Positions 4,416-53,279 of a DNA stretch of 64,000 nt are shown in pieces. A program made the translations under genes and the position numbers. Below the pieces are notes generated by a model, which had not been told where the DNA came from, did not search any database, and was given only the letters and a program-made list of their open reading frames with translations. Where the stretch lies: IMG/VR virus record IMGVR_UViG_3300048694_001252, positions 32,001-96,000 of that record. One strand, 5' to 3'. This DNA comes from a virus. Position 1 is the stretch's first letter. Every line of letters starts with the position of its first letter.

Positions 4416-4421
4416 GATGCG

Positions 4422-4450
4422 ATTATAGTTGAAAACTACAGCACTGTCAA
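4422..4450 (-). promoter_or_regulatory. Consensus sigma70 promoter (early), likely leaderless
   Basis: TTGACA-17 nt-TATAAT on the minus strand, 6 nt before ATG 4415. Confidence 0.85.
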
Positions 4451-4457
4451 AATTGCT

Positions 4458-5228
4458 CTAGCCAATCACCCAGGTAATGGGCTGAGAACCATCCACATAG
4501 GCCTTGAGTTGCTCGAGCAAGGCATCCATTTGGGCCTGGGCTTCGGTTTTCATGGCAGTACCATTGAGGGTGCTGCCGCCCTGGGGACCGGCTATGGTAC
4601 CAAATTTTTCGCGAGCTTCGCCTATGATCATCTTGCAGTTGGCCACCATGTAGTCCCGCATCCATTGAGAAATTTGGAAATCGCTCAAGAGGTTGATCTC
4701 GGGCTTGAGGTTATAGGTCCATAGCAGTATGGCTTCGTTGCTGCCCTTGGGATCACGGATCAGTTGCAGCTTCTTGGTCACGGGGTTGTAGGTGTAATTG
4801 ATGTATCCACCAAACATGCGAGCTGCTAGTTCCACGTACTGGCTGTAGAAATCATAGGTGGCTAGACCACCGGCCACGTTGAAGTTCATGAGATATACAT
4901 TCAGGCTGGCCTGTGCAAAGGGATCAAAATTGGATGCAAATGGGCCTGTGGCATCACCAAATGTACGCCGGAAAATCTGGCGCACCGATATCACTTCCTG
5001 GGGCAATTGATAGATGTTTTCATCCTTGACCAGGTACATGAAACTGTAGCTTTCTTCATAGGCATTCTGGGCTCGCTGACGATAGGTGCCCAGGGTCTTT
5101 TGATAGGCAGCTTCGTAGTCCTCGGGATCGAGTTCCACATCAATAATGTTAGCACCCAATTGGGCGCTCACATATTTTATTAGAGCTTGTTTGAGTTCAG
5201 CGAGAGTATCTTGTTGTTGCTCGGCCAT
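4458..5228 (-). CDS. gp13: Neck/head completion protein (T4 gp13-like)
   Basis: LGANIIDVELD, W...Y..A.CK..IGEAREKFGTIAGPQGGSTLNG, and a C-terminal WVIG. Confidence 0.8.
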   Translation of the reverse strand: MAEQQQDTLAELKQALIKYVSAQLGANIIDVELDPEDYEAAYQKTLGTYRQRAQNAYEESYSFMYLVKDENIYQLPQEVISVRQIFRRTFGDATGPFASNFDPFAQASLNVYLMNFNVAGGLATYDFYSQYVELAARMFGGYINYTYNPVTKKLQLIRDPKGSNEAILLWTYNLKPEINLLSDFQISQWMRDYMVANCKMIIGEAREKFGTIAGPQGGSTLNGTAMKTEAQAQMDALLEQLKAYVDGSQPITWVIG

Positions 5229-27135: not shown

Positions 27136-30100
27136 CTAGACTCTGCCCACCACGATTTCAATCAGGCCCTGATCGCCCTCAAAGTTTTCCAGACTCTTGC
27201 CTATAATAGCACCAGTTGGGGGGTCTGCATCCGATCTGGCCGCGCCGTTGCCCGCGCTCACCATCATGTCGCCCTTGCGTATCACGCCCGTGACACGGGT
27301 TTTTACCCGCCCCTGCAGAGCCAGCAGTACCGGATGTTCAGCTGATATGCCCGCGTTCATGACGTGTCCCGGACCGGTACTGACCACACCGGCCACGGCT
27401 CGATCACCATCAACTGAACTGATAGTTACTTCGTGTGTGCCACCAAAGCAGAGCACAGTACCCGGTTCATAGTCTTGATCGGCGCTGTATTTTTCGGCCA
27501 AGTCGGCATATTGAGCTTGTGTTGATGTGACCTGTAGCGTGTTATTTGCTGCATCAAAACTGAATGCCGTGGCTGCTGTTCGAACTGAGGCTGTTTGGTT
27601 GCTACCGGCTGCGGCCACAAAAACCGGATAGAATGTACCAGTTGTGACCGCTGTGGCATTGATAGCCGTACTGGGTCCAGTGGAGCCCTGAGTGCCCGTG
27701 GAGCCCTGAGTGCCCGTGGAACCCTGAGCGCCTGTAGCACCTTGAGTACCAGTACCTGTGGTACCCTGTGCACCTGTTGTGCCTTGTGCACCTGTGGTGC
27801 CTTGTGTGCCATTTGTTCCTGCAGTACCCTGTGCACCTGTGGTGCCTTGAGCACCTGTGGTACCTTGTGTGCCATTTGTTCCTGCAGTACCCTGTGCACC
27901 TGTGGTGCCTTGAGCACCTGTAGTACCTTGTGTGCCATTTGTTCCTGCAGTACCCTGTGCACCTGTGGTGCCTTGTGCGCCATTTGTTCCACTAGTACCC
28001 TGTGCACCTGTGGTGCCTTGTGTGCCATTTGTTCCACTAGTACCCTGTGCACCTGTGGTGCCTTGGCCGCCGGTGGCACCTTGTGTGCCATTTGTTCCAC
28101 TAGTACCCTGTGCACCTGTAGCACCTTGGCCGCCAGTGGCACCTTGTGTGCCATTTGTTCCACTAGTACCCTGTGCACCTGTGGTGCCTTGAGTGCCAGT
28201 ACCTGTGGTGCCTTGTGCACCTGTGGTACCTTGTGTGCCATTTGTTCCACTAGTACCCTGTGCACCTGTGGTACCCTGTGCACCTGTGGTGCCTTGTGCG
28301 CCATTTGTTCCACTAGTACCCTGTGCACCTGTAGTGCCTTGTGTGCCATTTGTTCCACTAGTACCCTGTGCACCTGTGGTGCCTTGTGCACCTGTTGTAC
28401 CTTGAGCACCTGTGGTACCTTGTGTGCCATTTGTTCCACTAGTACCCTGTGCACCTGTGGTGCCTTGAGCACCTGTAGCACCTTGTGTGCCATTTGTTCC
28501 ATTAGTACCCTGTGCACCTGTGGTGCCTTGGCTACCAGTAGCACCTTGACTACCTGTGATACCTTGAGCACCTGTTGTTCCTTGAACACCTGAACCTGTA
28601 GTGCCTTGAGTACCTTGGGTACCCGTAGCTCCTTGGGTACCAGTAATTCCCTGTCGACCTTGAATACCTTGAGTGCCCTGTGCACCTGTGGTGCCTTGGC
28701 TACCAGTAGCACCTTGACTACCTGTGGTGCCTTGAGCACCTGTGGTGCCTTGAGAACCTGCACCTGTGGTGCCTTGTGGTCCCGGAGTTCCACCAAGATT
28801 TACTGACCAAGAACTATAAGTACCAGATCCAGTAGTACTAGTAATATTGGTTACTAGCTGTCCAGTACCGCTGTTATAACTGGTAACAGTTCCTGACATA
28901 TAATTGCTACCGTCATATGAGATAACAATATTTTGAGATGAGATATATGCTAAATTGGTACCAACAGTTATCGTTTGACTGCCAGTTGCAATAGTCAGAC
29001 TAGTTGAGCTAGTGGTTACATAAGCGTCGCCAGTTATACCTTGTGAACCTAGAATACCTTGCGATCCAGTGCTGCCTTGACTACCTGTAGCACCTTGGGT
29101 ACCTGTGGCTCCTTGGGTACCAGTAATTCCCTGTCGACCTTGAATACCTTGAGTGCCCTGTGCACCTGTAGTGCCTTGGCCACCAGTAGCGCCTTGACTA
29201 CCTGTAGCACCTTGACTACCTGTGATGCCTTGCGCACCTGTGATGCCTTGGCCGCCGGTGGCACCTTGTGTGCCATTTGTTCCACTGGTACCCTGTGCAC
29301 CTGTGGTGCCTTGTGTGCCATTTGTTCCACTGGTACCCTGTGCACCTGTGGTGCCTTGGCCACCAGTAGCGCCTTGACTACCTGTGATGCCTTGAGTACC
29401 TGCACCTGTGGTGCCTTGGCCACCAGTAGCGCCTTGGCCACCAGTAGCGCCTTGACTACCTGTGGTGCCTTGAGTACCTGCACCTGTGGTGCCTTGGCCA
29501 CCAGTAGCGCCTTGTGTTCCCAATAAACCTTGAACGCCTTGAGTGCCCATGGTTCCTTGGCTGCCTGTGACACCTTGAGCACCTGTGCTACCTTGTGTTC
29601 CTTGTATTCCGGTAGCTCCTTGAGGACCGGTTGTGCCTTGCGCACCAGATCCAGTACTGCCCTGTATGCCCGTGGCACCTTGAGCACCAGAAGCTTGCAC
29701 AGCCACACCATTGGCATATTGGAATCCTGCAGCAATGACGTTGCCAACTGCTGTGACTTTACCGCTAGAAAACACATTTCCGCTGGCAGAAATTGCACCA
29801 GTGGCATTGACATTTGCACCCTGGACATTGCCCGATGCTGATACTGTAACACCTTGCACCAGCGCGGCAGATATTAGATTACCACTGGTGACATTTCCCG
29901 AAACTGAAACTGTGGTCCCAGTATGGATCACTGCGTTGACATTGGCCCCACCAAGTATATTGGCACCAGTAATATTGCCCGTGACTGATAGTCCAGTACC
30001 GTTGAATATTGCTGCTTGAGATCCACCAATACCCACTGTGACCGCACCGCCGGCGCTGACCACCTTGACATTGCTGGTACCATTGGTTATTTGATTAACC

Positions 30101-30243
30101 GATACGTTGCCACCAATACTGGTATTTCCGTTGATGGTTAGATCCCCGGTGATGGTAGTTGCCCCAGCCGAAAGCTTGATCGAATCTGTAGGATCTATGG
30201 TTTCGATGGTGTAATTGCCGCTAACGCGCTTGATTGTGCTCAT
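27136..30243 (-). CDS. Collagen-like fibre protein with C-terminal intramolecular chaperone-like domain (1035 aa)
   Basis: Gly-X-Y tracts; C-terminal AQYADLAEKY...LALQGRV...IGKSLE, paralogous to 13980-17399. Confidence 0.85.
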   Translation of the reverse strand: MSTIKRVSGNYTIETIDPTDSIKLSAGATTITGDLTINGNTSIGGNVSVNQITNGTSNVKVVSAGGAVTVGIGGSQAAIFNGTGLSVTGNITGANILGGANVNAVIHTGTTVSVSGNVTSGNLISAALVQGVTVSASGNVQGANVNATGAISASGNVFSSGKVTAVGNVIAAGFQYANGVAVQASGAQGATGIQGSTGSGAQGTTGPQGATGIQGTQGSTGAQGVTGSQGTMGTQGVQGLLGTQGATGGQGTTGAGTQGTTGSQGATGGQGATGGQGTTGAGTQGITGSQGATGGQGTTGAQGTSGTNGTQGTTGAQGTSGTNGTQGATGGQGITGAQGITGSQGATGSQGATGGQGTTGAQGTQGIQGRQGITGTQGATGTQGATGSQGSTGSQGILGSQGITGDAYVTTSSTSLTIATGSQTITVGTNLAYISSQNIVISYDGSNYMSGTVTSYNSGTGQLVTNITSTTGSGTYSSWSVNLGGTPGPQGTTGAGSQGTTGAQGTTGSQGATGSQGTTGAQGTQGIQGRQGITGTQGATGTQGTQGTTGSGVQGTTGAQGITGSQGATGSQGTTGAQGTNGTNGTQGATGAQGTTGAQGTSGTNGTQGTTGAQGTTGAQGTTGAQGTSGTNGTQGTTGAQGTSGTNGAQGTTGAQGTTGAQGTSGTNGTQGTTGAQGTTGTGTQGTTGAQGTSGTNGTQGATGGQGATGAQGTSGTNGTQGATGGQGTTGAQGTSGTNGTQGTTGAQGTSGTNGAQGTTGAQGTAGTNGTQGTTGAQGTTGAQGTAGTNGTQGTTGAQGTTGAQGTAGTNGTQGTTGAQGTTGAQGTTGTGTQGATGAQGSTGTQGSTGTQGSTGPSTAINATAVTTGTFYPVFVAAAGSNQTASVRTAATAFSFDAANNTLQVTSTQAQYADLAEKYSADQDYEPGTVLCFGGTHEVTISSVDGDRAVAGVVSTGPGHVMNAGISAEHPVLLALQGRVKTRVTGVIRKGDMMVSAGNGAARSDADPPTGAIIGKSLENFEGDQGLIEIVVGRV
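27674..29690 (-). repeat. Degenerate collagen coding repeat including [15 protein letters not shown] units
   Basis: Near-identical tandem units visible in the DNA. Confidence 0.9.
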
Positions 30244-30831
30244 CTAAAGGTCCTTTGGATTATTTAGTCGTCGTTGTAGGTCTTCTAGATCCAGATGAAA
30301 CAGGTTAGCCAATCCATCAAATTGAGCAATATGCGCCGTGGTTGATCCACGCACTCGGACAAAACGTATCCGCGGGAAATCGCCGGCGATACGCAGAATC
30401 TGCCGTGTCCAATTACCGGTATAAGTGGGTTGACTGCTGCTTTTTTTGTAGAATTCGGTATCCGCATACACATTGTTGAACAGATCGCCCGGCATTGGCC
30501 CCATATCAAATCCCACGAGATATATGGGATCATGATGGGCCAGTGCAGCCAAACTCACGGCCAATGGACCTGAACTAAATCCAAAATACTGCTGGGGTAC
30601 AGACTTGGCACCTAGACCCGGAATAGGTTTACGAGTATAGAACTCGTATTGAGCCGAATAGCCACTCTCTTGTATGGCCGTGCTTATGGGTCTATCTGTA
30701 GACACCAATACTGTGGGTATAAATTCACGATAGAGAGCATTACAACCATAGACGGGACCATGTCTTTTTACCTGATCCAGATCCAGCCCCATGCGACTGC
30801 GCCCGTTACCCAACACAAAAGCCACACTCAT
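30244..30831 (-). CDS. DUF115/MptE-like or sialyltransferase-like nucleotide-binding protein
   Basis: AFVLGNGRSR, YGCNALYR, SSGPLA, IYLVGFD motifs. Confidence 0.6.
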   Translation of the reverse strand: MSVAFVLGNGRSRMGLDLDQVKRHGPVYGCNALYREFIPTVLVSTDRPISTAIQESGYSAQYEFYTRKPIPGLGAKSVPQQYFGFSSGPLAVSLAALAHHDPIYLVGFDMGPMPGDLFNNVYADTEFYKKSSSQPTYTGNWTRQILRIAGDFPRIRFVRVRGSTTAHIAQFDGLANLFHLDLEDLQRRLNNPKDL

Positions 30832-32993: not shown

Positions 32994-33160
32994 GTCGACA
33001 ACCAACCAAACTGATCGCAGCCGGAGACATAGTGCGCAGACCCACAGACCGTGCGCAGGGCGTGGTATTGTCACGCCGGGGCATATGGACCGTGGAGGTC
33101 AAATGGCCCAGTGGTGCCAAGGAAATCGTGAAAATCTCGGAGCTGATCAGGGTGGCCTAG
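32990..33160 (+). CDS. Small SH3/KOW-like hypothetical protein (56 aa)
   Basis: ATGA overlap with the upstream stop; GDIV...GVV...VEVKW pattern. Confidence 0.5.
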   Translation: MSRQPTKLIAAGDIVRRPTDRAQGVVLSRRGIWTVEVKWPSGAKEIVKISELIRVA

Positions 33161-33161
33161 A
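33145..33161 (+). repeat. Left 17-bp direct repeat GATCAGGGTGGCCTAGA
   Basis: 16/17 identical to 33853-33869. Confidence 0.8.
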
Positions 33162-33174
33162 TTGTCCAATTTGT

Positions 33175-33204
33175 TTGTAAACCACCTGCAGAATCGTGCA
33201 TAAT
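33175..33204 (+). promoter_or_regulatory. Putative sigma70 promoter for the tRNA cassette
   Basis: TTGTAA-18 nt-CATAAT, 8 nt before the tRNA 5' end. Confidence 0.5.
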
Positions 33205-33212
33205 TACCATAT

Positions 33213-33286
33213 GCGCCCGAAGCTGATCGGATAGCCGGAGCCTCTAAAACTCCTGGTAGCGGGTTCGACTCCCGCCTGGCGCACCA
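33213..33286 (+). tRNA. Amber suppressor tRNA, anticodon CUA (33244-33246)
   Basis: Cloverleaf: acceptor GCGCCCG/CUGGCGC, D GCUG/UAGC, anticodon arm GGAGC-CUCUAAA-ACUCC, T arm GCGGG-UUCGACU-CCCGC, A73 and encoded CCA; 74 nt. Confidence 0.85.
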
Positions 33287-33304
33287 CTAACCAAGGAGAC
33301 TTTC

Positions 33305-33847
33305 ATGTCCTAGATTGAATATGCATGCCGAGATTGTGTTTTTCATTTCAACAAAAAACATCTAGAAGACCCCACCGTGCCCATGTGGGTAATCAAAACA
33401 CATGGTGAAACGTTCTATGTGAATCATGTCACATGCGAACTTGCCTGGTCAACCAAAGAAACCCCCGACAACACGCATACCAAAGGATCTCTCAAGATCC
33501 GTGAATGCCTGCTGACCATTGACGATGCCAATGAGGCCCGACTCACTGAACTCACAGTCTGGGATCGGGTTCGTCTGCGCAATCAGCGACTGGGTATAAC
33601 TCGAATCATATTTGCATACGGTAGTGATATCCATCGTGCGCTCAAGGCCAAGGAGTTCCGGCACAGCTCTTTCAAGAACGTGAGCGGAGGATGCGGTACC
33701 AGTTTTGTGGTCTGTGATCTCCTAGATCCAGCAGAGGCCACGTTTGCTGCTCTCAAATATCAGTTCAGAGTAATGAAACCCAATGAAGATTATTATCGAG
33801 CCTATGATCAACCCGGATCTCACATAGAGGAATCGGGAGAATACTGA
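33305..33847 (+). CDS. Hypothetical protein (180 aa) with in-frame TAG at codon 3; needs amber read-through
   Basis: AAGGAG at 33293-33298, then ATG TCC TAG ATT GAA TAT GCA TGC..., in frame with the listed 156-aa ORF at 33377. Confidence 0.75.
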
Positions 33848-33852
33848 GGACA

Positions 33853-33869
33853 GATCGGGGTGGCCTAGA
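33853..33869 (+). repeat. Right 17-bp direct repeat GATCGGGGTGGCCTAGA
   Basis: 16/17 identical to 33145-33161. Confidence 0.8.
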
Positions 33870-34560
33870 CTCCATATTGCCCACGTGAGGCATTGAAGTT
33901 TTGCAAGACTTCCCAGTCAGACAAGGATCTATTGTAGCAGAAAAACTGGCCTATACTGCCACTCAAGAGATTGCCATGATCGTAACTGGCTATGTCGGTG
34001 CTACCGTCGCCGGGATGCGGGTTGAGATTGTAGCTTGAACTGGCGTCAAATACACCGTTCACATAGGTTTTCATACTTACATAGGCTTCAAATGTCACGG
34101 CTATGTAATACCACTGACCTAGATCAAACGTGGCCACGGTGGGAAATGCATTGTAGTTGGCCCAGTCCTGGTGTCCGCTATAGAAACGGTTGCCACCTGA
34201 TCCAAAAGTGAAGTGACCACCTGCGAAACTACTCACTATGTTGTTGTTATAGCTGTAGCTGTTAAGACGCAACCACATGCTCTTGGTATACTGATTGTTG
34301 GGTAACACATTGGCAGTGAATCCCACACCGTACTGATTGGCGCCATTGAACGTGAAGTAGGAGGGTGTGCCTGAGGTCCACGTGGGCGAATTCTGCAAGC
34401 TAATATTGGCTCCAAAACCCGAAAGATCATACCAGGTGGTTCCAGATCCCGGATAGCTGGCAGGGTTATTGGCATCCAACCACATGGTCAGTCCTGTGGT
34501 GACATATCCAGGTTCATCCTGCAAGATTGTGCCTTGAATTTTGCCGCCTGAGATAATCAT
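33865..34560 (-). CDS. LamG/concanavalin A-like lectin domain protein
   Basis: LDANNPASYPGSGTTWYDLSG, WYYIAVTF, YVNG, YNRSLS..EVLQNFNA. Confidence 0.8.
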   Translation of the reverse strand: MIISGGKIQGTILQDEPGYVTTGLTMWLDANNPASYPGSGTTWYDLSGFGANISLQNSPTWTSGTPSYFTFNGANQYGVGFTANVLPNNQYTKSMWLRLNSYSYNNNIVSSFAGGHFTFGSGGNRFYSGHQDWANYNAFPTVATFDLGQWYYIAVTFEAYVSMKTYVNGVFDASSSYNLNPHPGDGSTDIASYDHGNLLSGSIGQFFCYNRSLSDWEVLQNFNASRGQYGV

Positions 34561-35276
34561 ATTCCAAACCTTGATCTATTGGCATTGAAGTTCTGTGACA
34601 CACCGCTGGTACCAATATCTGCGTTATAGATTCTTACAATGCTGAGTTTGCCGCCCCAGTATTGATAATTGTCCCAACGACTCATCAATCTGATGCCATT
34701 TCCACCACGCACTGAGTTGAAGCCGGGCCATGCACGACTGTTAACCAAGACGCCATTTACATACAGTCGCACGGTGGTGCCGTCCCAAGTGCCTGTGACC
34801 TGATACCAATTGCCTGTGATTAGTGTGACCTGCCCAGAATAAGTTGATGCCCAACCACCATTGAATGAACCAGACTGGAGGTAGGGAAAACTGTCTTCGG
34901 TGTTGCCCAAAGTAAAGTTGAGGGGATTGCCAAAATACATTTCTGTCACAATACAAGGAGATCCCGAGCCCATGTTGGTAGTGTCATGATACAACCAGGC
35001 TTCCACAGTCCAGTTTGAAAATGTTGATGCAAATGATGGTCCCTGAGCATACTGACTCAAAGCCGGATCAAACAATATACTACCGCCATTGCCAGCATCG
35101 TAGGCAGGGCTGTTGGCCAAAGTATATACCAATCCGCTTTCAGTATCAGTCCATGTTGAGCCTGAGCCTGGATAACTGGCAGGATTACCGGCGTCAAGAT
35201 TCAAGATCAAATTGGCCTGCACCACTCCGGGTGTTTGATATCTACCGCCGCGATAGGTTCCACTTCTTATGATCAT
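34557..35276 (-). CDS. LamG/concanavalin A-like lectin domain protein
   Basis: LDAGNPASYPGSGSTW, WYQVTGTWDG..VRLYVNG, QNFNANRSRFGI. Confidence 0.8.
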   Translation of the reverse strand: MIIRSGTYRGGRYQTPGVVQANLILNLDAGNPASYPGSGSTWTDTESGLVYTLANSPAYDAGNGGSILFDPALSQYAQGPSFASTFSNWTVEAWLYHDTTNMGSGSPCIVTEMYFGNPLNFTLGNTEDSFPYLQSGSFNGGWASTYSGQVTLITGNWYQVTGTWDGTTVRLYVNGVLVNSRAWPGFNSVRGGNGIRLMSRWDNYQYWGGKLSIVRIYNADIGTSGVSQNFNANRSRFGI

Positions 35277-35278
35277 AA

Positions 35279-36040
35279 TCAAATTCCGTAGGTAGTTTTC
35301 ACAGCATTGTAGTTTGCGGTGACTTGAGCTTGACTCAAAGCAATGTTGTAAGCTCTCATTTGATAATAGGTGCCAATAGCAACATCAGTTGGCGTGCCTG
35401 AGGTACCAGCATTAGGATGGCGAGAACCAAAGTTCAATCCTGTGGCGGCAGGGCTTTGTGCAGAATTATATCCAGTGGAGACTGAGTTTTGTAGCGTTCC
35501 GTTGATGTATAACTTGAGGCTAGGTGTAGCATCTACTGTGATAATAAATTGTCTAATAGCTCCTGAGTTGGCAGTGACATTATAAAGGTTGTATTTGCTG
35601 GTCACTCCACCTATAGAGATTTGAGTTGAGCTTGCCCAATACGCCATCCAACCAAGGCTCGCCAGGTAACTTTCATTGCCAAACAGTGTAGACCAAAAAC
35701 TCGTTGCAGTAATATTTGCAATAACTTCAACGGTGAACGGGACTGCCAAATTATATGATGTATTGGCTACCATGGCCATGTTTGTGGCTTGACTTGGTCC
35801 CAATATCAACCCTCCATTGTTGCTGGAGGTATAAGTAGCGGTTCCGGTGCCTGTTTTGTATATCGTACCATTGCGACCATTGCCCGACTCATCTAGCCAA
35901 TAGTTGAAGCTGGCAGTTGGTGCATTGAGATAGTTGATCTGTAGGCCTGATGTAGTGCCGGTCCAAGTATTATTGCTGGGGTACACAGGTGATGAAGCTG
36001 ATCCCACGTTGTTCATCATATTCATCATGATGCCAGTCAT
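35279..36040 (-). CDS. LamG/concanavalin A-like lectin domain protein
   Basis: WLDESGNGRNG, LKLYING, YNIALSQAQVTANYNA; start at the TAATG overlap. Confidence 0.75.
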   Translation of the reverse strand: MTGIMMNMMNNVGSASSPVYPSNNTWTGTTSGLQINYLNAPTASFNYWLDESGNGRNGTIYKTGTGTATYTSSNNGGLILGPSQATNMAMVANTSYNLAVPFTVEVIANITATSFWSTLFGNESYLASLGWMAYWASSTQISIGGVTSKYNLYNVTANSGAIRQFIITVDATPSLKLYINGTLQNSVSTGYNSAQSPAATGLNFGSRHPNAGTSGTPTDVAIGTYYQMRAYNIALSQAQVTANYNAVKTTYGI

Positions 36041-39000
36041 TAACTTACTCCTGTGCCGTTGATCATCCAAACGTTGGCGGCAACATTCAATAGTGTCGCC
36101 ATGCCATATGTGGTCACGGTTCTATTACCAGCAGTGGCATTGCCTGCAAGATACAGACTTACTCCGGTGTCTTGTGCAATAGTGATGTTGCCGGTTCCAC
36201 GATTTACAATACTGATTGCTGTGCCCACGGTCCAACTCACAGATGAGTTATTTGCGATAGTCAATGTGTTACCAGTGGACAATGTTGAGTAGTAATGCTT
36301 GCCTGCATCGGCTGCTGCTATTGTGGCATTGCCAGCGAACGATATTTGGGGAAGATCTCTATAACCAATGGCATAGTTAGCAGTGGTTACTGTTGCTGAA
36401 TTGCCTAACACTGCTCCAGGAGCAATGATATTGCCACCCAGTTGCACATTACCGCCCAAAGGATTCAACACGATTGGATAGTAAGTGGCATTTTGTGAAT
36501 ATCCGCTTTGTATCCATTGTGCATAGGCTGTGCTCACACCATTTAGTGTAGATCCAACTGGATACTGACCCAAAGCCAGATAGTTGCTGCCGGAACCGCC
36601 TATTGATACCGCAGCATTGGCAGTGATTGCGTTGGCTGCTGGGGCAAGCTGAATTCCGCTTAGTAAACTATGTTGTAATGTGGCTGTGGCGTTGGAGCCT
36701 ACATTCAAGTTACCTGTAACACTGGCAGTTCCTGCGGTGCTGATGTTACCACCAATGATATTACCTGTGGCTGTGATCAATCCGCCAGTTAAAATGTTAC
36801 CGTGTGTGGCATTACCAGTAGAACTCATAATGCCAGCAGTTAAGATATTGCCACCAGTGATGTTACTCGAGGCTGATATCAATCCACCTGTTAATACGTT
36901 ACCACCTGTGATATTACCAGCGTTAACTGTGCCGGTGGTAGATATTGTGTTACTGCCATATGCAGCCAACAATGTGGTTACGTTTGAGTTTCCATAACTG
37001 CTACCTGCAGCAACCGCGGCAAACACACCATTACCATATAACACGGTGCTGGCGTTGCCGTTTAAGTTGATTGAACTAATATTGCCCAAGTTTGCGGCTG
37101 TGATATTACCTGTGGCCGAAATCAAACCTGCTGTGAGTAAGTTGCCACCCGTGATGTTGGCTGACACTGACACTGTGGTTCCTGTGTACGTGGTAGCATT
37201 GACATTGGCACCACCTAGGATATTACCACCTGTGATGTTGCCAGTAGCTGAGATCAAACCTGTGGTCGTGACGTTGCCGCTGATTACGTTACCAGTCACA
37301 GATGCATTACCACTGGTAACTGAGAATCCACTTACAATCAAGTTAGATTGGGCATTGACATTACCAGTTACAAAAATACCATTTGTGCTGTTGAAGTTTA
37401 CTCGCTGACCAAACTGAACTGCGGAGCCATTCTGAGTTGTAATCGTATTGTTAGAACCATAAATGGTCAGTGCTGTACCAATAGTTGCGTTGCCTGTTGC
37501 AGTCACATCAGATAAGGTCGTAGCTCCGGTTACCTGCAACGATGTGGCTGTAACTGTGCCCGAAGCTGATATACCAACACCAAGTAAGTTGCCGCCACGC
37601 ACGTTACCAGTTGCACTGATTGCACCACCTGTGAGTATATTTGCACCAGTGATGTTGCCAGTGGCATTTACCTGTCCTGCGGTAGACAAATTGCCACCAA
37701 TCACATTGGCTGCGCTGGTGACAGTACCAGTTGCACTGATTGCACCACCTGTGAGTATATTTGCACCAGTGATGTTACCTGCGGTCACAGTGCCAGTAGT
37801 GGATATTGTGTTGCTGCCAAATCCAGCTAGCAAAGTGGTCACATTTGAGTTGCTGTAGGCGGCTGGTAATCCTGTGAGCTGGCTACCATTGCCAAAAAAG
37901 TAGTTTGCTGAGATATTTCCCGAAGCACTGACCACTCCTGTGGCAACAAGATTGCCACCTGTAACGTTACCGGTAGTGCTGACTGGCGCAGAACCACTGA
38001 CTTGTATATTGCTTAGTAAACTGCCATCGCCTAAGATATAGGCACCACGCACGTTACCAGTGGCCGAAATAGCACCACTGGTAGTGATCCCTGTGTTGGA
38101 GATTTGCGCCACGGTGTTTGCTGAGCCCGAGCCGCCGGCATTGAACTTGATACCGTAGCCTGCTGTTGTGGTACCAAGAACCAAGTTGCCACCTGCTGCC
38201 CCACCTTGCACATACAGATAACCGTCTCTGCGCTGCACTGCTGAACCAAGACTGTTGTCTTGTGTACCGTCCCACACACTGCTGGCTATACCCATGTCAA
38301 GATAGTTTGTGGTATCTGTGCCGTCATCTGCTGTGATCGCCAGTTCCATAGACGCCACATTACCGTGATTGGTATTCTGCAGGTTTACTTGGGTATAGCT
38401 GTTGTCATCGCCTGTTATTTGTACCACAGTGTTGGGCAGAGGTGTATAACCGGTCTTGCCAGCATAGATAGCACCAATACCTGTTGATATATTGCCGTAG
38501 AACACACCCGAGTTGCCAGAAATCTGTGTGACGTTTCCTGTAAAGTTTATGTTGCCAGTCACAAACAAGTTACCACCAATGGTAGCGTTACCATCTAAAT
38601 CAAAGTTTTTTGAGCCGTTGATGTTGCCACTTATGGTAGCGTCGTAAACACTCAGGTTGCCAGTTGTTGTGATATCTCCGGGAGCAGTCAGTGCACCTGT
38701 GTTATCAAATGTCCAATGGCTTGTGAATGCGCTTATGCTCACATTGCCATTGGCATAGATCTGGATATCGTTGGCATCCATGTAGATGGCTGTGAGATCA
38801 TCCACAGTAGAAGTTAGATAGGCAGTGTTACCACCGTTTTCGTTCAGCGACAGTTTTGAGTTGCCCTGTACAACGTTGCCAGGTATAGTCAAGTTACCAG
38901 TATAATCAAACACCCAACTGTTAGAACCAGCTGTGATGTTTACATTACCTGCATGGCCTGCTGGGTCTGCACTGTTGCCTGTTGTGAGATAGATGCTGCC

Positions 39001-41568
39001 GCCAGGACCTCCTCCACCTCCATCATTGAAGGCACCAACGCCGCCTGTGATCACAACGTCTCCACCAGAAGTGGTATAGTAGTCGCCTAGATCTGCTGAT
39101 CCAGCTGTGATAGCTATGTTGTATCCATCAACCGCACCTGTAGCAGACACTGTGGAAACGGTTGTATTACCCGACACAGTGACATTGCCAGTGGTATCAA
39201 ACGTCCATACTGCTGTGTTGGCGGCCAGTTCAATGTTGCCTGTTCCGCCTTGGAACGTGACATTGCCTGCGGTATCAAATGTCCAGGCATACGATCCAGC
39301 AATGACTTCTACATTGGGGTTGGTGCCTACAAACGCACCTGCACTCACATTACCTGTGGTCACCACATTGCCCGGAGCAAACAACTGGCCATTGGTATCA
39401 AAGTTCCAAAGATTGCTGTTGCTGACCAGTTGCATATTGCCACTGGCGCCCAAGTTACCTGTGCTGTCAAATGTCCAACCATACACATTGCCTGCATTGC
39501 CCACATTGGTTTGGATGACCACATTGGCATTAGCATACGTATAAGTGTCAACTCCATTTTCCATGCTGACACCATTGACATCACTTTGTATGTTGGCTGT
39601 AACAGTGAGTCCAGTGTTGCTGTAGGCCCAAAAAGCCTGATTGGTGTCTAAAATGATATTGCCGGGTGCTGTAAGATTGCCAGTATTGTCAAAGGTCCAA
39701 ATATATACATTGGCCACCAGTTCAATATTGGCCTGATCGCCTACAAATGTGTTGGCTGTGATATTACCTGTGGTTGATATCACATTTGATCCAAAGTTGG
39801 CCATGAGTGTGACCACGTTGGAGTCACCGTAATTACTGATTACGCCATCTAGAATACTGACACCATTGGCATAGTTGATGTTTGATGTGTTACTGGGTAG
39901 ATCTATATTGCCATTGCTTCGGAAGGAGTATGATCCTGTGCCCACATTGAGAACAACACCACTACCGCTGGTGCTGTAGATTTGAACAGGTTGACTGCTT
40001 TGATTCAGTACTGATGGAAAAGTCATACCGGCATTGCTTTCAATGCCGGGATCAATGCGTATACCTTCATTGCCTAGACCACTATTGGGGGCACCTAAAT
40101 TGCCATTGAATTCACCGATGGTCCATTCACCGTCCAACCATGATATTAAATTACCCAATCCGTATTGAATGACGTTGCTAGCAGCCATCGGGGTATTGGT
40201 CATCGTGATACTGGCAAATGTATTACCGCCACCACCATAGGGATTACCATTGGCATAGTTGATACTGCTGGTGTCTGAGGGCAGGGTAATATTGCCATTG
40301 TTTTCAAAACGCCATTGGCTAGCACCAGCATTGACCAGCACATTGCCGTAAAAACCTAGACCACCGGTGCTGATACCGCCACCAATGGTGACATTACCCC
40401 CGGGACCATCCCCACCATAACCTCCGGTCATTGTGATGGCTCCACCAGAACCACCGCCTCCATAACCGCCTAAGATCTCAACATAACCACCCGAGCCACC
40501 GCCACTGTCCCCACCTTTGAGGTATAGATATCCAGCTGTGCCTGCACTTTGTACATCCCCGGCTTCTACACGAATATATCCGCCTGAACCGTTGCCGGGT
40601 CCATATCCGCCGCGTATCTTGACGTCACCGCCATTGCCGTCTGTATCGCCACCGCGACCGGCCCAGAGATAGATATCGCCACCTTCTCCGCCAGTACCGT
40701 CGGCACCTTTGCCAGGATTGATTACCAAACGTTGTGAGTTTATGTTTGTATTTGCATCGCCATTGGCCGTGGTTATTACAGACTCGTAGTTGTTGTCTGT
40801 CAACGACAACGTGTAACCATACACTGTACCACTGGATATATCTCCACGAGTCGTGTATTGCAATGGAGCAAGAAGTTGACCATTGTTGTCAAAGGTCCAT
40901 GTGGCCGCGGTCACCCCAGTATTGTTGCCAGTTTGTAACGCTAGGTTACCATAGAGATTGAACAGCGTGGTCGTGTTGTTGATTGCACCATTAGTGGGCA
41001 GAATCAAGGCCGCAGTGGGGCCAGACAACAGATCACCGTTTGTGACGGAACCGCCATTGATGTTGTATTGTGTGTTGCCTATAAATGCCCAGTTACCAAG
41101 ATCAGCATTGCCACCCGCTACGTTACTCCAATAGGTGTTACCTACACCATCCGTGGTCAAGACCTGACCTGCAACGCCCGCCAGACCGGTGTAGCGTACA
41201 TTGCCTACCTGAACTACCTGACTGGTGATACCCGTCGTGTTGAGATAGCGTATCCAGGCACTGTCATACCAGAACGCAGGGGTACCTAGATCATACACAC
41301 TGTCCGACAAGGGTCGCATGTGCTGTGTGAGCGCCGTGGTCTGCATCTGTATGTTGCCTAGACCATTGCCCGCGATCACGAGATCTAGATCGGTCTGGGT
41401 AGTTGACACCCAGTTGTTGGTGATCGTCACATTGGTGTTGACCGGACCTGCTGCCCACACGTTGGCAAAGTTGTTGTTGACGTTGTCAAAGGCCTCACGC
41501 AGGCCTTCACCGGTACCGTTGTTGGGTGCCGAACCTAGATTGATTACCTGCTGGGGGGTATTGCTCAT
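36040..41568 (-). CDS. Large tail fibre/baseplate-attached protein (1842 aa)
   Basis: N-terminus paralogous to 19707-27083; WTFDNTGNLT repeats, a Gly-rich GG.V.I.GG segment and GNITGGN repeats. Confidence 0.8.
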   Translation of the reverse strand: MSNTPQQVINLGSAPNNGTGEGLREAFDNVNNNFANVWAAGPVNTNVTITNNWVSTTQTDLDLVIAGNGLGNIQMQTTALTQHMRPLSDSVYDLGTPAFWYDSAWIRYLNTTGITSQVVQVGNVRYTGLAGVAGQVLTTDGVGNTYWSNVAGGNADLGNWAFIGNTQYNINGGSVTNGDLLSGPTAALILPTNGAINNTTTLFNLYGNLALQTGNNTGVTAATWTFDNNGQLLAPLQYTTRGDISSGTVYGYTLSLTDNNYESVITTANGDANTNINSQRLVINPGKGADGTGGEGGDIYLWAGRGGDTDGNGGDVKIRGGYGPGNGSGGYIRVEAGDVQSAGTAGYLYLKGGDSGGGSGGYVEILGGYGGGGSGGAITMTGGYGGDGPGGNVTIGGGISTGGLGFYGNVLVNAGASQWRFENNGNITLPSDTSSINYANGNPYGGGGNTFASITMTNTPMAASNVIQYGLGNLISWLDGEWTIGEFNGNLGAPNSGLGNEGIRIDPGIESNAGMTFPSVLNQSSQPVQIYSTSGSGVVLNVGTGSYSFRSNGNIDLPSNTSNINYANGVSILDGVISNYGDSNVVTLMANFGSNVISTTGNITANTFVGDQANIELVANVYIWTFDNTGNLTAPGNIILDTNQAFWAYSNTGLTVTANIQSDVNGVSMENGVDTYTYANANVVIQTNVGNAGNVYGWTFDSTGNLGASGNMQLVSNSNLWNFDTNGQLFAPGNVVTTGNVSAGAFVGTNPNVEVIAGSYAWTFDTAGNVTFQGGTGNIELAANTAVWTFDTTGNVTVSGNTTVSTVSATGAVDGYNIAITAGSADLGDYYTTSGGDVVITGGVGAFNDGGGGGPGGSIYLTTGNSADPAGHAGNVNITAGSNSWVFDYTGNLTIPGNVVQGNSKLSLNENGGNTAYLTSTVDDLTAIYMDANDIQIYANGNVSISAFTSHWTFDNTGALTAPGDITTTGNLSVYDATISGNINGSKNFDLDGNATIGGNLFVTGNINFTGNVTQISGNSGVFYGNISTGIGAIYAGKTGYTPLPNTVVQITGDDNSYTQVNLQNTNHGNVASMELAITADDGTDTTNYLDMGIASSVWDGTQDNSLGSAVQRRDGYLYVQGGAAGGNLVLGTTTAGYGIKFNAGGSGSANTVAQISNTGITTSGAISATGNVRGAYILGDGSLLSNIQVSGSAPVSTTGNVTGGNLVATGVVSASGNISANYFFGNGSQLTGLPAAYSNSNVTTLLAGFGSNTISTTGTVTAGNITGANILTGGAISATGTVTSAANVIGGNLSTAGQVNATGNITGANILTGGAISATGNVRGGNLLGVGISASGTVTATSLQVTGATTLSDVTATGNATIGTALTIYGSNNTITTQNGSAVQFGQRVNFNSTNGIFVTGNVNAQSNLIVSGFSVTSGNASVTGNVISGNVTTTGLISATGNITGGNILGGANVNATTYTGTTVSVSANITGGNLLTAGLISATGNITAANLGNISSINLNGNASTVLYGNGVFAAVAAGSSYGNSNVTTLLAAYGSNTISTTGTVNAGNITGGNVLTGGLISASSNITGGNILTAGIMSSTGNATHGNILTGGLITATGNIIGGNISTAGTASVTGNLNVGSNATATLQHSLLSGIQLAPAANAITANAAVSIGGSGSNYLALGQYPVGSTLNGVSTAYAQWIQSGYSQNATYYPIVLNPLGGNVQLGGNIIAPGAVLGNSATVTTANYAIGYRDLPQISFAGNATIAAADAGKHYYSTLSTGNTLTIANNSSVSWTVGTAISIVNRGTGNITIAQDTGVSLYLAGNATAGNRTVTTYGMATLLNVAANVWMINGTGVS

Positions 41569-52420: not shown

Positions 52421-52840
52421 AGATCTCTTGCGAGATCTGTTGATTCGCTTGCGCTCATCAACTGTTTCCGAGCGGAGCGATTTTTAGGATCATCTAGATG
52501 GAGTGGTCACACTTGGCCCGCACAGGGCCAAGATTGATCTGCACATCATCTGAGTATCGCAGTCACCTAGCGTTAGAGCATTACAGAGGCGGTTGTCCGG
52601 TACCTCGAGCTCCGTCTTATTACAACGGCGGCCTGCATCAAATACGCTAACATTCCATGCAGACGTGCACGATCACTCGTGCGTCATTGGGCCTTGATAT
52701 CCTGTTCTAACAATCAAACCCCGGCGTTTTGGGATCCTCGTCCTGTGAAGGATAGTGATTGAGAGCTCCTGCGGCGGAGTCTTTGGTCCCGGTGATCCGA
52801 TAGATCCCGTTGTCATCAGTGCACGAATTTGGCCTGCACT
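52421..52840 (-). ncRNA. Putative large structured non-coding RNA of unrecognised family
   Basis: No ORF of 60 aa or more lies within it; about ten helices; GNRA loops (GUGA, GCAA twice) and G-U pairs on the minus strand; potential pseudoknot UUAGCG/CGCUAG. Confidence 0.65.
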
Positions 52841-53279
52841 AGCCCTGACCGCTTAGTTTGCCTCGGATATGACTGCCATGCACACGTACCTGGATGTGGC
52901 CGTTGTAGTAGCTGTCACTCTCTAACACACGCTGACTAAATTGTTCTCTTGCTTCGATGTAGCTGCATTCTGCCCGGCTTTTGCAATAATAAAGTATTTC
53001 GCGCTGGAAGTTTTGGTTGCCTAGTTTTGCGATGTCTTGGAGCAGTTGGGGGCTAGACCCCCAATAGTCTCGCCAATCACTCTCGACTTGTGTGCGTATT
53101 TTGCGTTTTCGTTTGTTGCCGTTTTTGAATTTGACTGTGCGTTGCCTGGTCTTGCGAAATTGAGCTAGTTTTTTGCCTATGTACTTGCGCTGCGTGATGA
53201 GATTGGTTATTTCATATACAAAACCCGCACAATCTAGGGGCAGTTGTTCTACTGGGTTGCCTTGATATAGCCATGTCAT
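52839..53279 (-). CDS. Compact GIY-YIG nuclease (catalytic domain only)
   Basis: GFVYEITNLITQRKYIGKK, YWGSS, REIL, SYIE, YYN; basic insert KFKNGNKRKRKIR; no NUMOD tail. Confidence 0.8.
   Translation of the reverse strand: MTWLYQGNPVEQLPLDCAGFVYEITNLITQRKYIGKKLAQFRKTRQRTVKFKNGNKRKRKIRTQVESDWRDYWGSSPQLLQDIAKLGNQNFQREILYYCKSRAECSYIEAREQFSQRVLESDSYYNGHIQVRVHGSHIRGKLSGQG

What the first reader, a model, noticed from the sequence alone, without database searches (positions are those of the whole stretch)
33175..33847. Amber-suppressor tRNA placed directly ahead of a gene whose third codon is TAG
Seen in sequence: a promoter-like TTGTAA-18-CATAAT, then a complete tRNA with anticodon CUA and encoded CCA (33213-33286), then AAGGAG and ATG TCC TAG ATT GAA... 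The TAG (33311-33313) is followed by 177 open codons in frame with the listed 156-aa ORF, whose own GTG/ATG starts lack an SD. About ten other genes in the window end in TAG and no other long gene is broken by it, so this is not genome-wide recoding. Inference: a two-part lock-and-key module in which the 180-aa protein is made only if the co-transcribed tRNA is processed, charged and intact. It could act as a delay, as a dose limiter for a toxic or host-takeover protein, as a sensor of host tRNA-targeting defence, or be a first step toward TAG reassignment. The protein has no fold I recognise.
Basis: partly seen in the sequence, partly recalled or inferred. Interest (0 to 1): 0.92.

Follow-up and report, generated by a model that had tools for sequence, protein, structure and literature searches.

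The report
Phage gene gated by own amber-suppressor tRNA
A T4-like phage that otherwise uses the normal genetic code keeps a UAG stop as the third codon of one conserved gene, right behind its own UAG-reading tRNA; about 150 distinct relatives do the same, and in related phages the stop codon changes with the tRNA's anticodon, so this looks like a natural, apparently undescribed one-codon translation switch.

Summary
A tRNA(CUA) with encoded CCA lies at 33213-33286. It is followed by AAGGAG and ATG TCC TAG (33311-33313), then 177 open codons to TGA at 33845-33847. It is the only tRNA and the only such early-TAG gene on the 115-kb contig, where TAG ends about a third of the genes.

The TAG is not an error. 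Of 196 distinct homologous genes, 150 carry SD-ATG-(1-12 codons)-TAG directly before the conserved domain. The 21 codons after the TAG evolve like coding sequence. Every sufficiently long record holds a suppressor tRNA, usually less than 3 kb upstream on the same strand.

New here:
- Homologs without the TAG still keep the tRNA.
- In most of these, the upstream PTH2-like peptidyl-tRNA hydrolase gene carries the early stop instead.
- Phosso has TAG with tRNA(CUA). Atu_ph07 and two uncultured phages have TGA with tRNA(UCA).

The lock-and-key reading is therefore supported by comparison, not by experiment. The protein has no known family or fold, and a translation-linked role is inferred.

This scan has found the module before on other DNA, in both the form seen here and the PTH2-gated form. 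I found no paper that describes it.

The parts
33145..33161 (.). Left copy of a 17-nt direct repeat (GATCAGGGTGGCCTAGA) that flanks the cassette. It overlaps the TAG stop of the upstream 60-aa ORF.
   Evidence: the repeat finder family D1, 16 of 17 identical to 33853-33869. No such repeat was found in 64 other loci.
33175..33204 (+). Promoter-like TTGTAA-18-CATAAT, 8 nt upstream of the tRNA.
   Evidence: Consensus scan, 9 of 12 matches. Not above the chance expectation for this region.
33213..33286 (+). tRNA with anticodon CUA (amber suppressor). It is type I, has an encoded CCA, G1-C72, A73 and anticodon loop CUCUAAA.
   Evidence: ARAGORN and Rfam, 45 bits. It belongs to a family of 84 distinct phage tRNA(CUA) sequences in which 16 of 18 stem pairs show compensatory changes and U33-C34-U35-A36-A37 is invariant.
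33293..33298 (+). Shine-Dalgarno sequence AAGGAG, 6 nt before the ATG and 6 nt after the tRNA's CCA end.
   Evidence: Read from the sequence. An SD-like AAGGAG/AAGGAA precedes the ATG in the 80 closest homologous loci listed, and in most loci listed.
33305..33313 (+). Gate: ATG TCC TAG, i.e. start codon, one sense codon and an in-frame amber codon, followed by A (ATT).
   Evidence: ATG plus one codon plus TAG occurs in 106 of 149 gated homologs, and the base after TAG is A in 140 of 149.
33314..33565 (+). N-terminal conserved domain of the protein (residues 4-87), all-beta, with motifs FHFNKKH, PMW, K-x-x-G and STKETPDN-x-x-TKGS.
   Evidence: Alignments A1, A2 and A5. AlphaFold model with pLDDT 94.3. 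No confident structural match: VIA best Z 3.8, Foldseek nothing. Codons 1-21 after the TAG differ per site by 0.141, 0.106 and 0.442 at codon positions 1, 2 and 3.
33566..33847 (+). C-terminal domain (alpha/beta, ferredoxin-like) and the TGA stop at 33845-33847.
   Evidence: Full-length model with pLDDT 86.6. Weak ACT/RRM-like matches, Z at most 5.5. Not homologous to PTH2.
33853..33869 (.). Right copy of the flanking 17-nt direct repeat (GATCGGGGTGGCCTAGA). It overlaps the stop codon of the convergent LamG-domain gene.
   Evidence: DNA homology to the closest relative (L032/L227) covers only 33196-33817, so tRNA plus gene form a discrete unit.

Best explanation
This is a self-contained suppressor-gated expression cassette.

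How it works: the phage makes its own tRNA(CUA). Ribosomes start at ATG 33305, read one codon and meet UAG.
- If release factor 1 wins, only a dipeptide is made.
- If the charged phage tRNA wins, the 180-aa protein is made. I call it SAP here, for suppressor-associated protein.

So SAP synthesis reports on, and depends on, the activity of the phage suppressor tRNA.

What is shown by comparison:
- The gate is conserved.
- The sequence after it is coding.
- The tRNA is always present.
- The gate codon matches the anticodon.

What is inferred:
1. The gate sits at codon 3 because a failed attempt there costs almost nothing. From my own knowledge, not checked here, release on very short nascent chains is slow, which would favour the tRNA there over ordinary gene-end TAGs.
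2. SAP acts in tRNA or translation biology. It never occurs without a suppressor tRNA, and in other phages it shares an operon with a gated PTH2-like peptidyl-tRNA hydrolase and, in jumbo phages, a Pnkp-like enzyme.
3. The early stop then works as a feedback or feed-forward sensor of suppression, in the manner of the in-frame UGA of prfB.

The inserted amino acid is unknown. Lysine is my best guess.
For: Gate conserved:
- All 80 closest IMG/VR loci have SD-ATG-X(1-4)-TAG directly before IEYACKD..FHFNKKH.
- Over 365 loci and 196 classifiable distinct genes, 150 have the early TAG.
- The cultured Rhizobium phage RHph_I1_18 has ATG AGT GAG TTC ATG TAG. Its gene is unannotated, and a tRNA(CUA) lies 13 nt downstream.

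Coding after the TAG:
- The invariant FHFNK motif lies upstream of any canonical start.
- Third-position variation is 0.442, against 0.141 and 0.106 at positions 1 and 2. The other two frames are closed in 106 and 113 of 114 sequences.
- TAG-less homologs start with ATG exactly at this point.

tRNA linkage:
- All tRNA(CUA) genes found beside the gene within 3 kb are on the same strand. The median distance is 286 nt upstream.
- A covariance model recovers 21 more tRNAs that ARAGORN missed.
- All nine records with no tRNA within 3 kb that were long enough to judge hold one elsewhere on the same strand.
- The tRNA family shows compensatory changes in 16 of 18 stem pairs.

Covariation:
- Phosso PTH2 has ATG AAA TAT TAG, and the phage has a tRNA(CUA).
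- Atu_ph07 PTH2 has ATG + 5 codons + TGA, and the phage has a tRNA(UCA) and no CUA hit among the R1 matches inspected. PMC6102473 reports UCA as its only suppressor among 33 tRNA genes.
- L333 and L336 have a TGA gate and a tRNA(UCA).
- The four jumbo-phage records with a TAG-gated PTH2 that were long enough to judge each hold 2-3 tRNA(CUA) genes.

Controls:
- PTH2 genes of four cultured phages without a SAP neighbour start at a plain ATG.
- The gate signature with TGA or TAA is nearly absent from the same loci: 3 and 0, against 286 for TAG.

Not genome-wide recoding: 32 of 102 genes end in TAG, and this is the only gated gene on the contig.
Against: - Nothing is experimental. It is unknown whether the tRNA is expressed, processed or charged, and with what.
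- A suppressor strong enough to open the gate should also extend some of the roughly one third of phage genes that end in TAG. This cost is unexplained.
- The contig (115 kb) is probably incomplete, so other TAG-containing genes could exist.
- Three TAG-less two-domain homologs (L166, L188, L374) keep a nearby tRNA(CUA) with no gated gene seen within 3 kb. The tRNA must therefore have at least one other role, or the loss of the gate is recent.
- CUA suppressor tRNAs also occur in phages without SAP: cluster C mycobacteriophages and XacN1.
- The codon after the TAG is ATT, ATC or ATA in 131 of 149 genes. These are weak start codons, so some tRNA-independent reinitiation is not excluded.
- The SAP function is only inferred from gene neighbourhood. 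The fold searches gave nothing confident.
Confidence: 0.78

Rival explanations
1. Termination-reinitiation without the tRNA. ATG-X-TAG is a two-codon leader ORF. After release at UAG, the ribosome restarts at the adjacent AUU/AUC/AUA codon and makes the protein from residue 4. The tRNA is linked for another reason.
For: The codon after the TAG is ATT, ATC or ATA in 131 of 149 gated genes. NCBI table 11 lists these as possible starts, and the SD is close by.
Against: - Eighteen of 149 genes have AAC, AAA, ACT, GTT, GTA or GTC after the TAG, and gated PTH2-like genes have GAA, CAA, GTT and others there.
- This does not explain why a suppressor tRNA is present in every record long enough to judge.
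- It does not explain why the gate is TGA exactly where the phage tRNA is UCA.
- Gates with TAA are absent. Reinitiation would not care which stop codon is used.
Confidence: 0.07
2. The tRNA's main job lies elsewhere: read-through extension of ordinary TAG-terminated genes, other in-frame TAGs in the unsampled part of the genome, or an early stage of TAG reassignment. The gated gene is a side effect or an accessory regulator.
For: - TAG-less homologs keep the tRNA.
- Jumbo relatives carry 2-3 copies of tRNA(CUA).
- On this contig, a 195-aa ORF ends in a TAG that is followed in frame by the ATG of a 1035-aa collagen-like gene.
- The contig is probably incomplete.
- Borges et al. propose that acquiring a suppressor precedes recoding (10.1101/2021.08.26.457843).
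Against: - TAG is not depleted as a stop codon (32 of 102 genes), whereas that model expects depletion first.
- No other gene on the 115 kb has the gate signature.
- In the flanks of 365 loci, only 8 non-SAP ORFs carry it. Four of these are PTH2-like genes and three are homing endonuclease genes inside the cassette.
- The tight same-strand linkage to this one gene family (median 286 nt) points to a dedicated pairing.
Confidence: 0.12
3. The true gene is the listed 156-aa ORF, starting at GTG 33377 or ATG 33383. The TAG is a real stop, or a sequencing or assembly error, and the upstream codons are not translated.
For: ORF callers, and most database entries for this family, start at the M of PMWV. 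Many cluster representatives begin at profile position 24.
Against: - The 21 codons upstream hold the family's most conserved motif (FHFNKKH) and evolve with a coding pattern.
- TAG-less homologs and C-terminally placed copies of the domain include that stretch.
- The internal start has no SD.
- The TAG recurs in 150 distinct genes from independent assemblies.
Confidence: 0.02

Closest known systems
Stop-codon-recoded phages with phage-encoded suppressor tRNAs (TAG read as Gln, 'code 15': crAss-like, Lak and others; bioRxiv 10.1101/2021.08.26.457843, PMC7886860, PMC9523058)
   Same: A phage-encoded tRNA(CUA) overrides UAG in a standard-code host. In-frame stops are proposed to time or gate phage gene expression.
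   Different: In those phages, many late and lysis genes carry internal TAGs, and TAG is rare as a stop. Here TAG ends about a third of the genes. There is exactly one gate, always within the first few codons of one operon, and it is usually linked in cis to the tRNA. The gated genes are SAP or PTH2-like, not structural or lysis genes.
prfB (RF2) autoregulation through an early in-frame UGA, and infC (IF3) through its AUU start (my own knowledge, not checked here)
   Same: An early signal in the mRNA of a translation-related gene makes its synthesis depend on how efficiently that same signal is decoded.
   Different: prfB uses a +1 frameshift and senses its own product. Here the stop is read by a tRNA, and it is unknown whether SAP acts on UAG decoding at all.
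Orphan suppressor tRNAs in standard-code jumbo phages (XacN1, PMC5852040; Atu_ph07, PMC6102473)
   Same: These are standard-code phages that carry CUA or UCA suppressor tRNAs together with peptidyl-tRNA hydrolase and tRNA-repair genes.
   Different: The XacN1 authors read through gene-end ambers and found no target. The Atu_ph07 paper lists many possible gene-end targets. Here, Atu_ph07's PTH2 gene shows an unannotated 5' extension with ATG + 5 codons + TGA that matches its UCA tRNA. XacN1 itself has no SAP homolog.
Synthetic amber-suppressor gating circuits in E. coli (PMC7969014, PMC13276491)
   Same: A gene carrying an early UAG is expressed only when a co-expressed suppressor tRNA is present. 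This is used to remove leak and to add a control layer.
   Different: Those are engineered. This would be a natural counterpart, maintained across at least 150 phage lineages.
Lambda bar minigenes and peptidyl-tRNA drop-off (my own knowledge, not checked here)
   Same: A two- or three-codon ORF (ATG-X-stop) behind a strong SD. In related phages it is linked with a peptidyl-tRNA hydrolase.
   Different: bar minigenes are not followed in frame by a conserved protein, and they work by sequestering tRNA. No suppressor tRNA is involved.

Membership tests
tRNA (Rfam RF00005) | Cloverleaf that scores above the family's gathering threshold | tested here: met
   45 bits against a gathering score of 29, with the full model matched. 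ARAGORN also calls it.
tRNA (Rfam RF00005) | Stems maintained by compensatory changes across relatives | tested here: met
   Across 83 related phage tRNA(CUA) sequences, 16 of 18 predicted pairs have changes on both sides.
Functional amber suppressor tRNA | Anticodon CUA in a 7-nt loop with U33 and a purine at position 37 | tested here: met
   The loop is CUCUAAA, and U33-C34-U35-A36-A37 is invariant in 83 sequences.
Functional amber suppressor tRNA | Aminoacylated and able to decode UAG in vivo | not testable with these tools
   Needs charging assays and reporter or mass-spectrometry data.
tRNA-Pyl (the label ARAGORN prints) | pylT-type structure: no G18G19, no canonical T-loop, 3-nt variable loop (my recollection of the pylT features) | tested here: not met
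   The sequence has GG in the D-loop, the T-loop GGTTCGACTCC and a 5-nt variable loop. ARAGORN prints this label for any CUA anticodon. pylS and pylBCD were not searched for.
Stop-codon-recoded phage (genetic code 15) | In-frame TAG in many genes, and TAG rare as a terminator | tested here: not met
   32 of 102 genes on the contig end in TAG. Only one gene has the in-frame TAG signature. The contig may be incomplete.
Any Pfam-A or PHROG family (for the 180-aa protein) | Profile match | tested here: not met
   No family at E <= 0.01 in Pfam or PHROGs. No PDB sequence relative. The ESM Atlas gave no usable hit.
PTH2 peptidyl-tRNA hydrolase (PF01981), considered for the C-terminal domain | Profile similarity to PTH2 or to the PTH2-like neighbours of SAP genes | tested here: not met
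   hhalign probability below 1% in two set-ups. No Pfam hit.
Known fold (OB-fold for the N-domain; ACT/RRM ferredoxin-like for the C-domain) | Structural match well above background | tested here: inconclusive
   N-domain: best VIA Z 3.8 (rmsd 3.6 over 66 residues), Foldseek E >= 0.66. C-domain: best Z 5.5 (rmsd 3.0 over 72 residues) to an AHAS regulatory subunit, within the usual background.
prfB-like autoregulatory recoding | The gene product itself changes decoding of the gating signal | not testable with these tools
   SAP's activity is unknown. The only hints are its obligate co-occurrence with suppressor tRNAs and its operon linkage to PTH2-like genes.

The most novel reading that the evidence does not exclude
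SAP, the PTH2-like hydrolase and the suppressor tRNA together form a dedicated phage system that reprograms stop-codon decoding. SAP would act directly on the suppression step, for example by binding the suppressor tRNA or by opposing release factor on the ribosome. The early stop in the first gene of the operon would be its autoregulatory sensor. This would let a standard-code phage run a controlled, low level of read-through. It would also explain why such phages carry 'orphan' suppressor tRNAs.
Probability: 0.25. Interest if true: 0.92.

Novelty: new variant of a known kind. Interest (0 to 1): 0.82.

Why it matters
- It gives a concrete target for suppressor tRNAs in phages that use the standard code. 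The XacN1 authors explicitly left this question open (PMC5852040).
- It would be a natural single-codon translational switch with a cis-linked key, the same design that synthetic biologists build by hand.
- It exposes systematic annotation errors. The family's genes are called about 24 codons short or missed altogether: the gene is unannotated in RHph_I1_18, and the PTH2 genes of Phosso and Atu_ph07 are truncated.
- It defines a widespread phage protein family with no Pfam or PHROG family and no confident structural match. The family is always found with a suppressor tRNA and often with a peptidyl-tRNA hydrolase, which makes it a candidate new translation factor.
- Three cultured phage-host pairs make it directly testable.

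Tried and rejected
DNA for database proteins such as P0002-P0006 could not be fetched. N-termini such as MSQ-VEIG and MSQQQ-IEYAC are probably TAG=Q translations, but this was not verified.
- A scan with P0016 found no relatives in IMG/VR.
- Fold searches were uninformative. Foldseek against the PDB and VIA-wide gave no confident match for the whole protein or the N-domain. I noticed several OB-fold proteins among the weak N-domain rows (Z 2.3-3.8), but this is not evidence.
- The ESM Atlas gave no usable hit, and a PDB sequence search gave nothing.
- The idea that the C-terminal domain is a diverged PTH2 is rejected.
- The C-domain is not encoded as a separate gene next to single-domain homologs, apart from one split case, L358.
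- There is no PTH2-like gene on the window's contig.
- The flanking direct repeats are not a general feature of the cassette: 0 of 64 other loci have them.
- Gene neighbours other than the tRNA (and PTH2-like genes in other subfamilies) are not conserved. They include Zn-ribbon, AhpC, CMD, gp23 and AAA proteins.
- tRNA identity is not resolved.
  - In six of nine phage records, a tRNA-Lys is the best or next-best match to the CUA-family model. In Atu_ph07, tRNA-Trp is next-best after the UCA suppressor.
  - A73, U35 and the CUCUAAA loop also fit Lys.
  - Met, Arg, Thr and Trp also appear, and part of the score comes from the loop itself.
- An initiator-tRNA reading is rejected. The tRNA has a G1-C72 pair and lacks three G-C pairs at the base of the anticodon stem.
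- Complex prediction was not used, because no specific protein partner could be justified.
Full report
**1. The observation**

The window is the structural region of a T4-like myovirus. It encodes gp23, gp20, a gp15-like protein and a tail sheath stabiliser, plus collagen-like and LamG fibre proteins. It lies on a single 115,246-bp viral contig.

- A tRNA with anticodon CUA and an encoded CCA at 33213-33286 (+). The Rfam tRNA model scores 45 bits against a threshold of 29.
- AAGGAG six bases later, at 33293-33298.
- ATG TCC TAG six bases after that, with the TAG at 33311-33313.
- 177 open codons running into the listed 156-aa ORF and ending at TGA 33845-33847.

The promoter-like TTGTAA-18-CATAAT exists, but it is no better than chance.

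This tRNA is the only tRNA on the contig. TAG is an ordinary terminator here: it ends 32 of 102 greedy-called genes, 12 of them in the window. A scan for SD + ATG + 1-10 codons + TAG + at least 100 open codons finds only this gene in 115 kb.

**2. The TAG is real, conserved and followed by coding sequence**

tblastn against cultured phages found homologs of residues 7-86, that is, upstream of the listed start. In Rhizobium phage RHph_I1_18 the homolog is unannotated. It reads SD-ATG AGT GAG TTC ATG TAG AAC GAA..., and a tRNA(CUA) lies 13 nt after its stop.

IMG/VR holds about 400 relatives. All 80 of the closest carry SD-ATG-X(1-4)-TAG immediately before IEYACKD..FHFNKKH.

After five further scans I held 365 loci, which reduce to 201 distinct genes, 196 of them classifiable. 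Of these, 150 have the early TAG:
- The arrangement is ATG plus one codon plus TAG in 106 of 149.
- The base after the TAG is A in 140 of 149.

In 114 distinct sequences, the 21 codons between the TAG and the first canonical start differ per site by 0.141, 0.106 and 0.442 at codon positions 1, 2 and 3. The other two frames are closed in 106 and 113 of the 114. This stretch holds the family's invariant FHFNK motif. Sequencing error, pseudogene and 'starts at MWVIKT' are therefore excluded.

**3. The tRNA always comes with the gene**

- ARAGORN found a CUA tRNA within the fetched flank for most genes. It was always on the same strand, usually upstream (median 286 nt, range 21-2897), and occasionally 15-53 nt downstream.
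- A covariance model built from 83 of these tRNAs recovered 21 more that ARAGORN had missed.
- Nine records had no tRNA within 3 kb but were long enough to judge. All nine held a CUA tRNA elsewhere on the gene's strand, 3-52 kb away.
- Only two short fragments (11.5 and 22.9 kb) lacked one.

The tRNA family is under selection as a tRNA. It has 84 distinct sequences, compensatory changes in 16 of 18 pairs, an invariant U33-C34-U35-A36-A37 and an encoded CCA in nearly all members. G1-C72 is invariant, and A73 occurs in 79 of 84. Position 31-39 is a C.A, A.C or C.C pair in 57 of 84 (58 counting one A.A).

**4.

(a) The protein-tRNA linkage does not depend on the TAG.
- All five TAG-less two-domain homologs keep a tRNA(CUA). 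In L166, L188 and L374 it is within about 700 nt; in L171 it is 1.9 kb away and in L128 8 kb away.
- About 20 of 24 TAG-less single-domain homologs also keep one, often as two copies flanking the gene.

(b) Where this protein (SAP) lacks the gate, the gene just upstream usually carries it.
- That gene is a PTH2-type or PTH2-like peptidyl-tRNA hydrolase that begins M-x(1-8)-TAG.

| SAP architecture | SAP's own gate | Distinct genes | PTH2-like neighbour |
|---|---|---|---|
| Two-domain | early TAG | 126 | none in any |
| Two-domain | none | 5 | 2 TAG-gated, 3 none |
| Single-domain | early TAG | 24 | 5 TAG-gated, 19 none |
| Single-domain | none | 24 | 15 TAG-gated, 2 ungated, 1 unclear, 6 none |
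| Domain at the C-terminus (Phosso-like) | none | 17 | 10 TAG-gated, 3 TGA-gated, 1 ungated, 3 none |

(All counts.)

- The gate therefore sits on the first gene of the operon.
- Reading Phosso's PTH2 from the TAG gives a fuller Pfam match (profile positions 3-113, 72.9 bits) than the annotated start does (13-113, 60.6 bits).

(c) The gate codon covaries with the anticodon.
- Phosso has ATG AAA TAT TAG and a tRNA(CUA).
- Its relative Atu_ph07 has ATG ATT GGC GAA CAC TTT TGA and a tRNA(UCA). No CUA tRNA appeared among the R1 matches I inspected, and the Atu_ph07 paper reports UCA as its only suppressor.
- Two uncultured jumbo phages, L333 and L336, likewise pair a TGA gate with a tRNA(UCA).
- The four jumbo records with a TAG-gated PTH2 that were long enough to judge each hold 2-3 tRNA(CUA) genes.

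(d) Controls.
- PTH2 genes in cultured phages that lack SAP (Xoo-sp13, RsoM2USA, phiM12, RAS14) start at a plain ATG.
- In all family loci, the gate signature occurs 286 times with TAG, 3 times with TGA and never with TAA.

(e) The cassette is a discrete unit.
- The closest relative shares DNA only over 33196-33817, at 76% identity. Its flanking genes are unrelated.
- In this window the unit is bracketed by a 16-of-17 direct repeat at 33145-33161 and 33853-33869. That repeat is not found at other loci.
- Homing-endonuclease genes (GIY-YIG/NUMOD3, HNH) that copy the 'ATG x TAG ATT GAA TAT' leader sit inside the cassette in three loci.

**5. The protein**

- It matches no Pfam or PHROG family.
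- An exhaustive HMM search finds 170 clusters at 50% identity. Four architectures appear: two-domain, N-domain alone, N-domain at the C-terminus of roughly 175-aa or longer proteins, and C-domain alone.
- The AlphaFold models are confident: pLDDT 86.6 for the whole protein and 94.3 for the N-domain.
- The N-domain is all-beta and has no confident structural relative (VIA Z at most 3.8; Foldseek nothing).
- The C-domain is a small alpha/beta unit that resembles ACT/RRM-type ferredoxin-like domains only at background level (Z at most 5.5). It is not related to PTH2.
- In Phosso and Atu_ph07 the operon is PTH2, a hypothetical gene, a SAP-like gene, and a kinase-phosphoesterase with AAA_33 and Metallophos domains. 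I read the last as Pnkp-like, which is an inference.
- Together with the obligate suppressor tRNA, this context points to tRNA or translation biology. That is inference from context, not a demonstrated function.

**6. Mechanism**

Supported by comparison: the full-length protein can be made only if UAG at codon 3 is decoded, and the phage supplies a matching tRNA.

Inferred:
1. Here the tRNA and the mRNA are probably co-transcribed. Only 6 nt separate the CCA from the SD and there is no terminator between them. This is not general, because in other phages the tRNA is kilobases away or downstream.
2. The very early position makes a failed attempt cheap (a dipeptide). From my own knowledge, not checked here, it also exploits slow release-factor action on very short peptidyl-tRNAs. 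This could let a weak suppressor open this gate while the phage's roughly 30% TAG-terminated genes still terminate.
3. The A36-A37-A38 loop fits the determinant for i6A37 modification that strong suppressors need (my own knowledge).
4. The inserted residue is unknown. A73, U35, the loop CUCUAAA (one change from the Lys CUCUUAA) and the frequent ranking of phage tRNA-Lys next to the CUA tRNA under the family model favour lysine. The same test puts tRNA-Trp next to the UCA suppressor of Atu_ph07. These signals are weak.
5. The purpose is open. The most economical idea is a sensor or feedback loop on suppression, as in prfB. A timer or a dose limiter for an unrelated effector is not excluded.

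**7. Rivals**

- Reinitiation at the AUU after the stop. It fits the Ile-codon bias, but not the exceptions, the absence of TAA gates, the obligate tRNA or the TGA/UCA covariation.
- The tRNA's main role is elsewhere, or this is incipient recoding. The evidence for it: TAG-less homologs keep the tRNA, jumbo phages carry several copies, an in-frame 195-aa-TAG-ATG-1035-aa pair lies at 27136-30831, and the contig is incomplete. This may be partly true, but it does not remove the gate.
- An internal start, or a sequencing error, is excluded by section 2.

**8. Comparison with what is known**

- The nearest kind is stop-codon recoding in phages that carry suppressor tRNAs. This case differs in keeping TAG as a common stop and in having a single, start-proximal gate on one operon, often linked in cis to the tRNA.
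- The XacN1 authors could not find targets for their CUA suppressors.
- The Atu_ph07 authors listed the UCA suppressor and the Pth gene separately, without noting the early TGA.
- A comparative review of jumbo phages notes PTH2 but not suppressors.
- Four full-text searches found no description of the gate.
- Engineered amber-gating circuits are the synthetic counterpart.
- This scan has already met the module on other DNA, in the SAP-gated form and the PTH2-gated form. The present session ties the two forms together as one operon family, with one gate on the first gene.

**9. Verdict**

The function of the protein is unknown. This is a new variant of a known kind, of high interest, and directly testable in three cultured phages.

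Noticed in passing
window 52708-52844 (-): Strong match to the Rfam Polynucleobacter-1 RNA motif (RF01718): 91 bits against a gathering score of 37, with the full model matched. It lies just downstream of, and 6 nt overlapping, the stop end of the 146-aa ORF 52839-53279 on the same strand. The role of this motif in a T4-like phage is unknown to me.
   Followed up: no
window 33145-33161 and 33853-33869: A 17-nt direct repeat (16 of 17 identical) brackets the tRNA + gene cassette exactly. Each copy overlaps the stop codon of the flanking gene. DNA homology to the closest relative ends just inside these repeats. No comparable repeat was found at 64 other loci, so it may be a local insertion footprint.
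   Followed up: partly
window 27136-30831 (-): A 195-aa ORF (30244-30831) ends in a TAG that is followed directly, in the same frame, by the ATG of the 1035-aa collagen-repeat protein (27136-30243). Amber read-through would fuse them into a protein of about 1231 aa, which makes this a candidate second target of the suppressor tRNA.
   Followed up: no
window 3891-5228 (-): The 256-aa ORF 4458-5228 ends in TAG, and the frame stays open for 188 more codons across the next ORF. This could be chance (one in three) or another read-through product.
   Followed up: no
L361:2299-2985, L147:2332-3000, L358:2208-2975: Homing-endonuclease genes (two GIY-YIG-like by motif with a Pfam NUMOD3 hit, one HNH_3) are inserted just upstream of the gated gene. 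They start with their own ATG-x-TAG. The two GIY-YIG-like ones also copy the following 'ATT GAA TAT' codons.
   Followed up: partly
L003:490-881 (Atu_ph07), L002:387-881 (Phosso), L001:1477-1725 (RHph_I1_18): GenBank annotations of cultured phages miss the gate. The PTH2 genes of Atu_ph07 and Phosso are annotated from an internal ATG that truncates the PTH2 domain. The RHph_I1_18 homolog is not annotated at all.
   Followed up: yes
tRNA alignment A6; L232:348-422, L190:2851-2925, L146:2712-2785: Many of the linked CUA tRNAs have a non-Watson-Crick 31-39 pair (C.A, A.C or C.C in 57 of 84, 58 counting one A.A). Several that ARAGORN misses have altered T-loops (GTTAGA, GTTTGA) or lack G18G19. These could be decaying copies or a deliberate way of tuning decoding strength.
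   Followed up: partly
L277, L279, L296, L308, L320: Single-domain homologs are often flanked by two tRNA(CUA) genes, either one on each side or two downstream. Jumbo relatives hold 2-3 copies per genome.
   Followed up: no
window 33865-36070 (-): Three tandem paralogous genes (231, 241 and 263 aa) with similar N- and C-terminal motifs lie just downstream of the cassette. The first, 33865-34560, was scanned and has a LamG/concanavalin-like domain (Laminin_G_3). They are followed by an 1842-aa ORF (36040-41568, not analysed).
   Followed up: no
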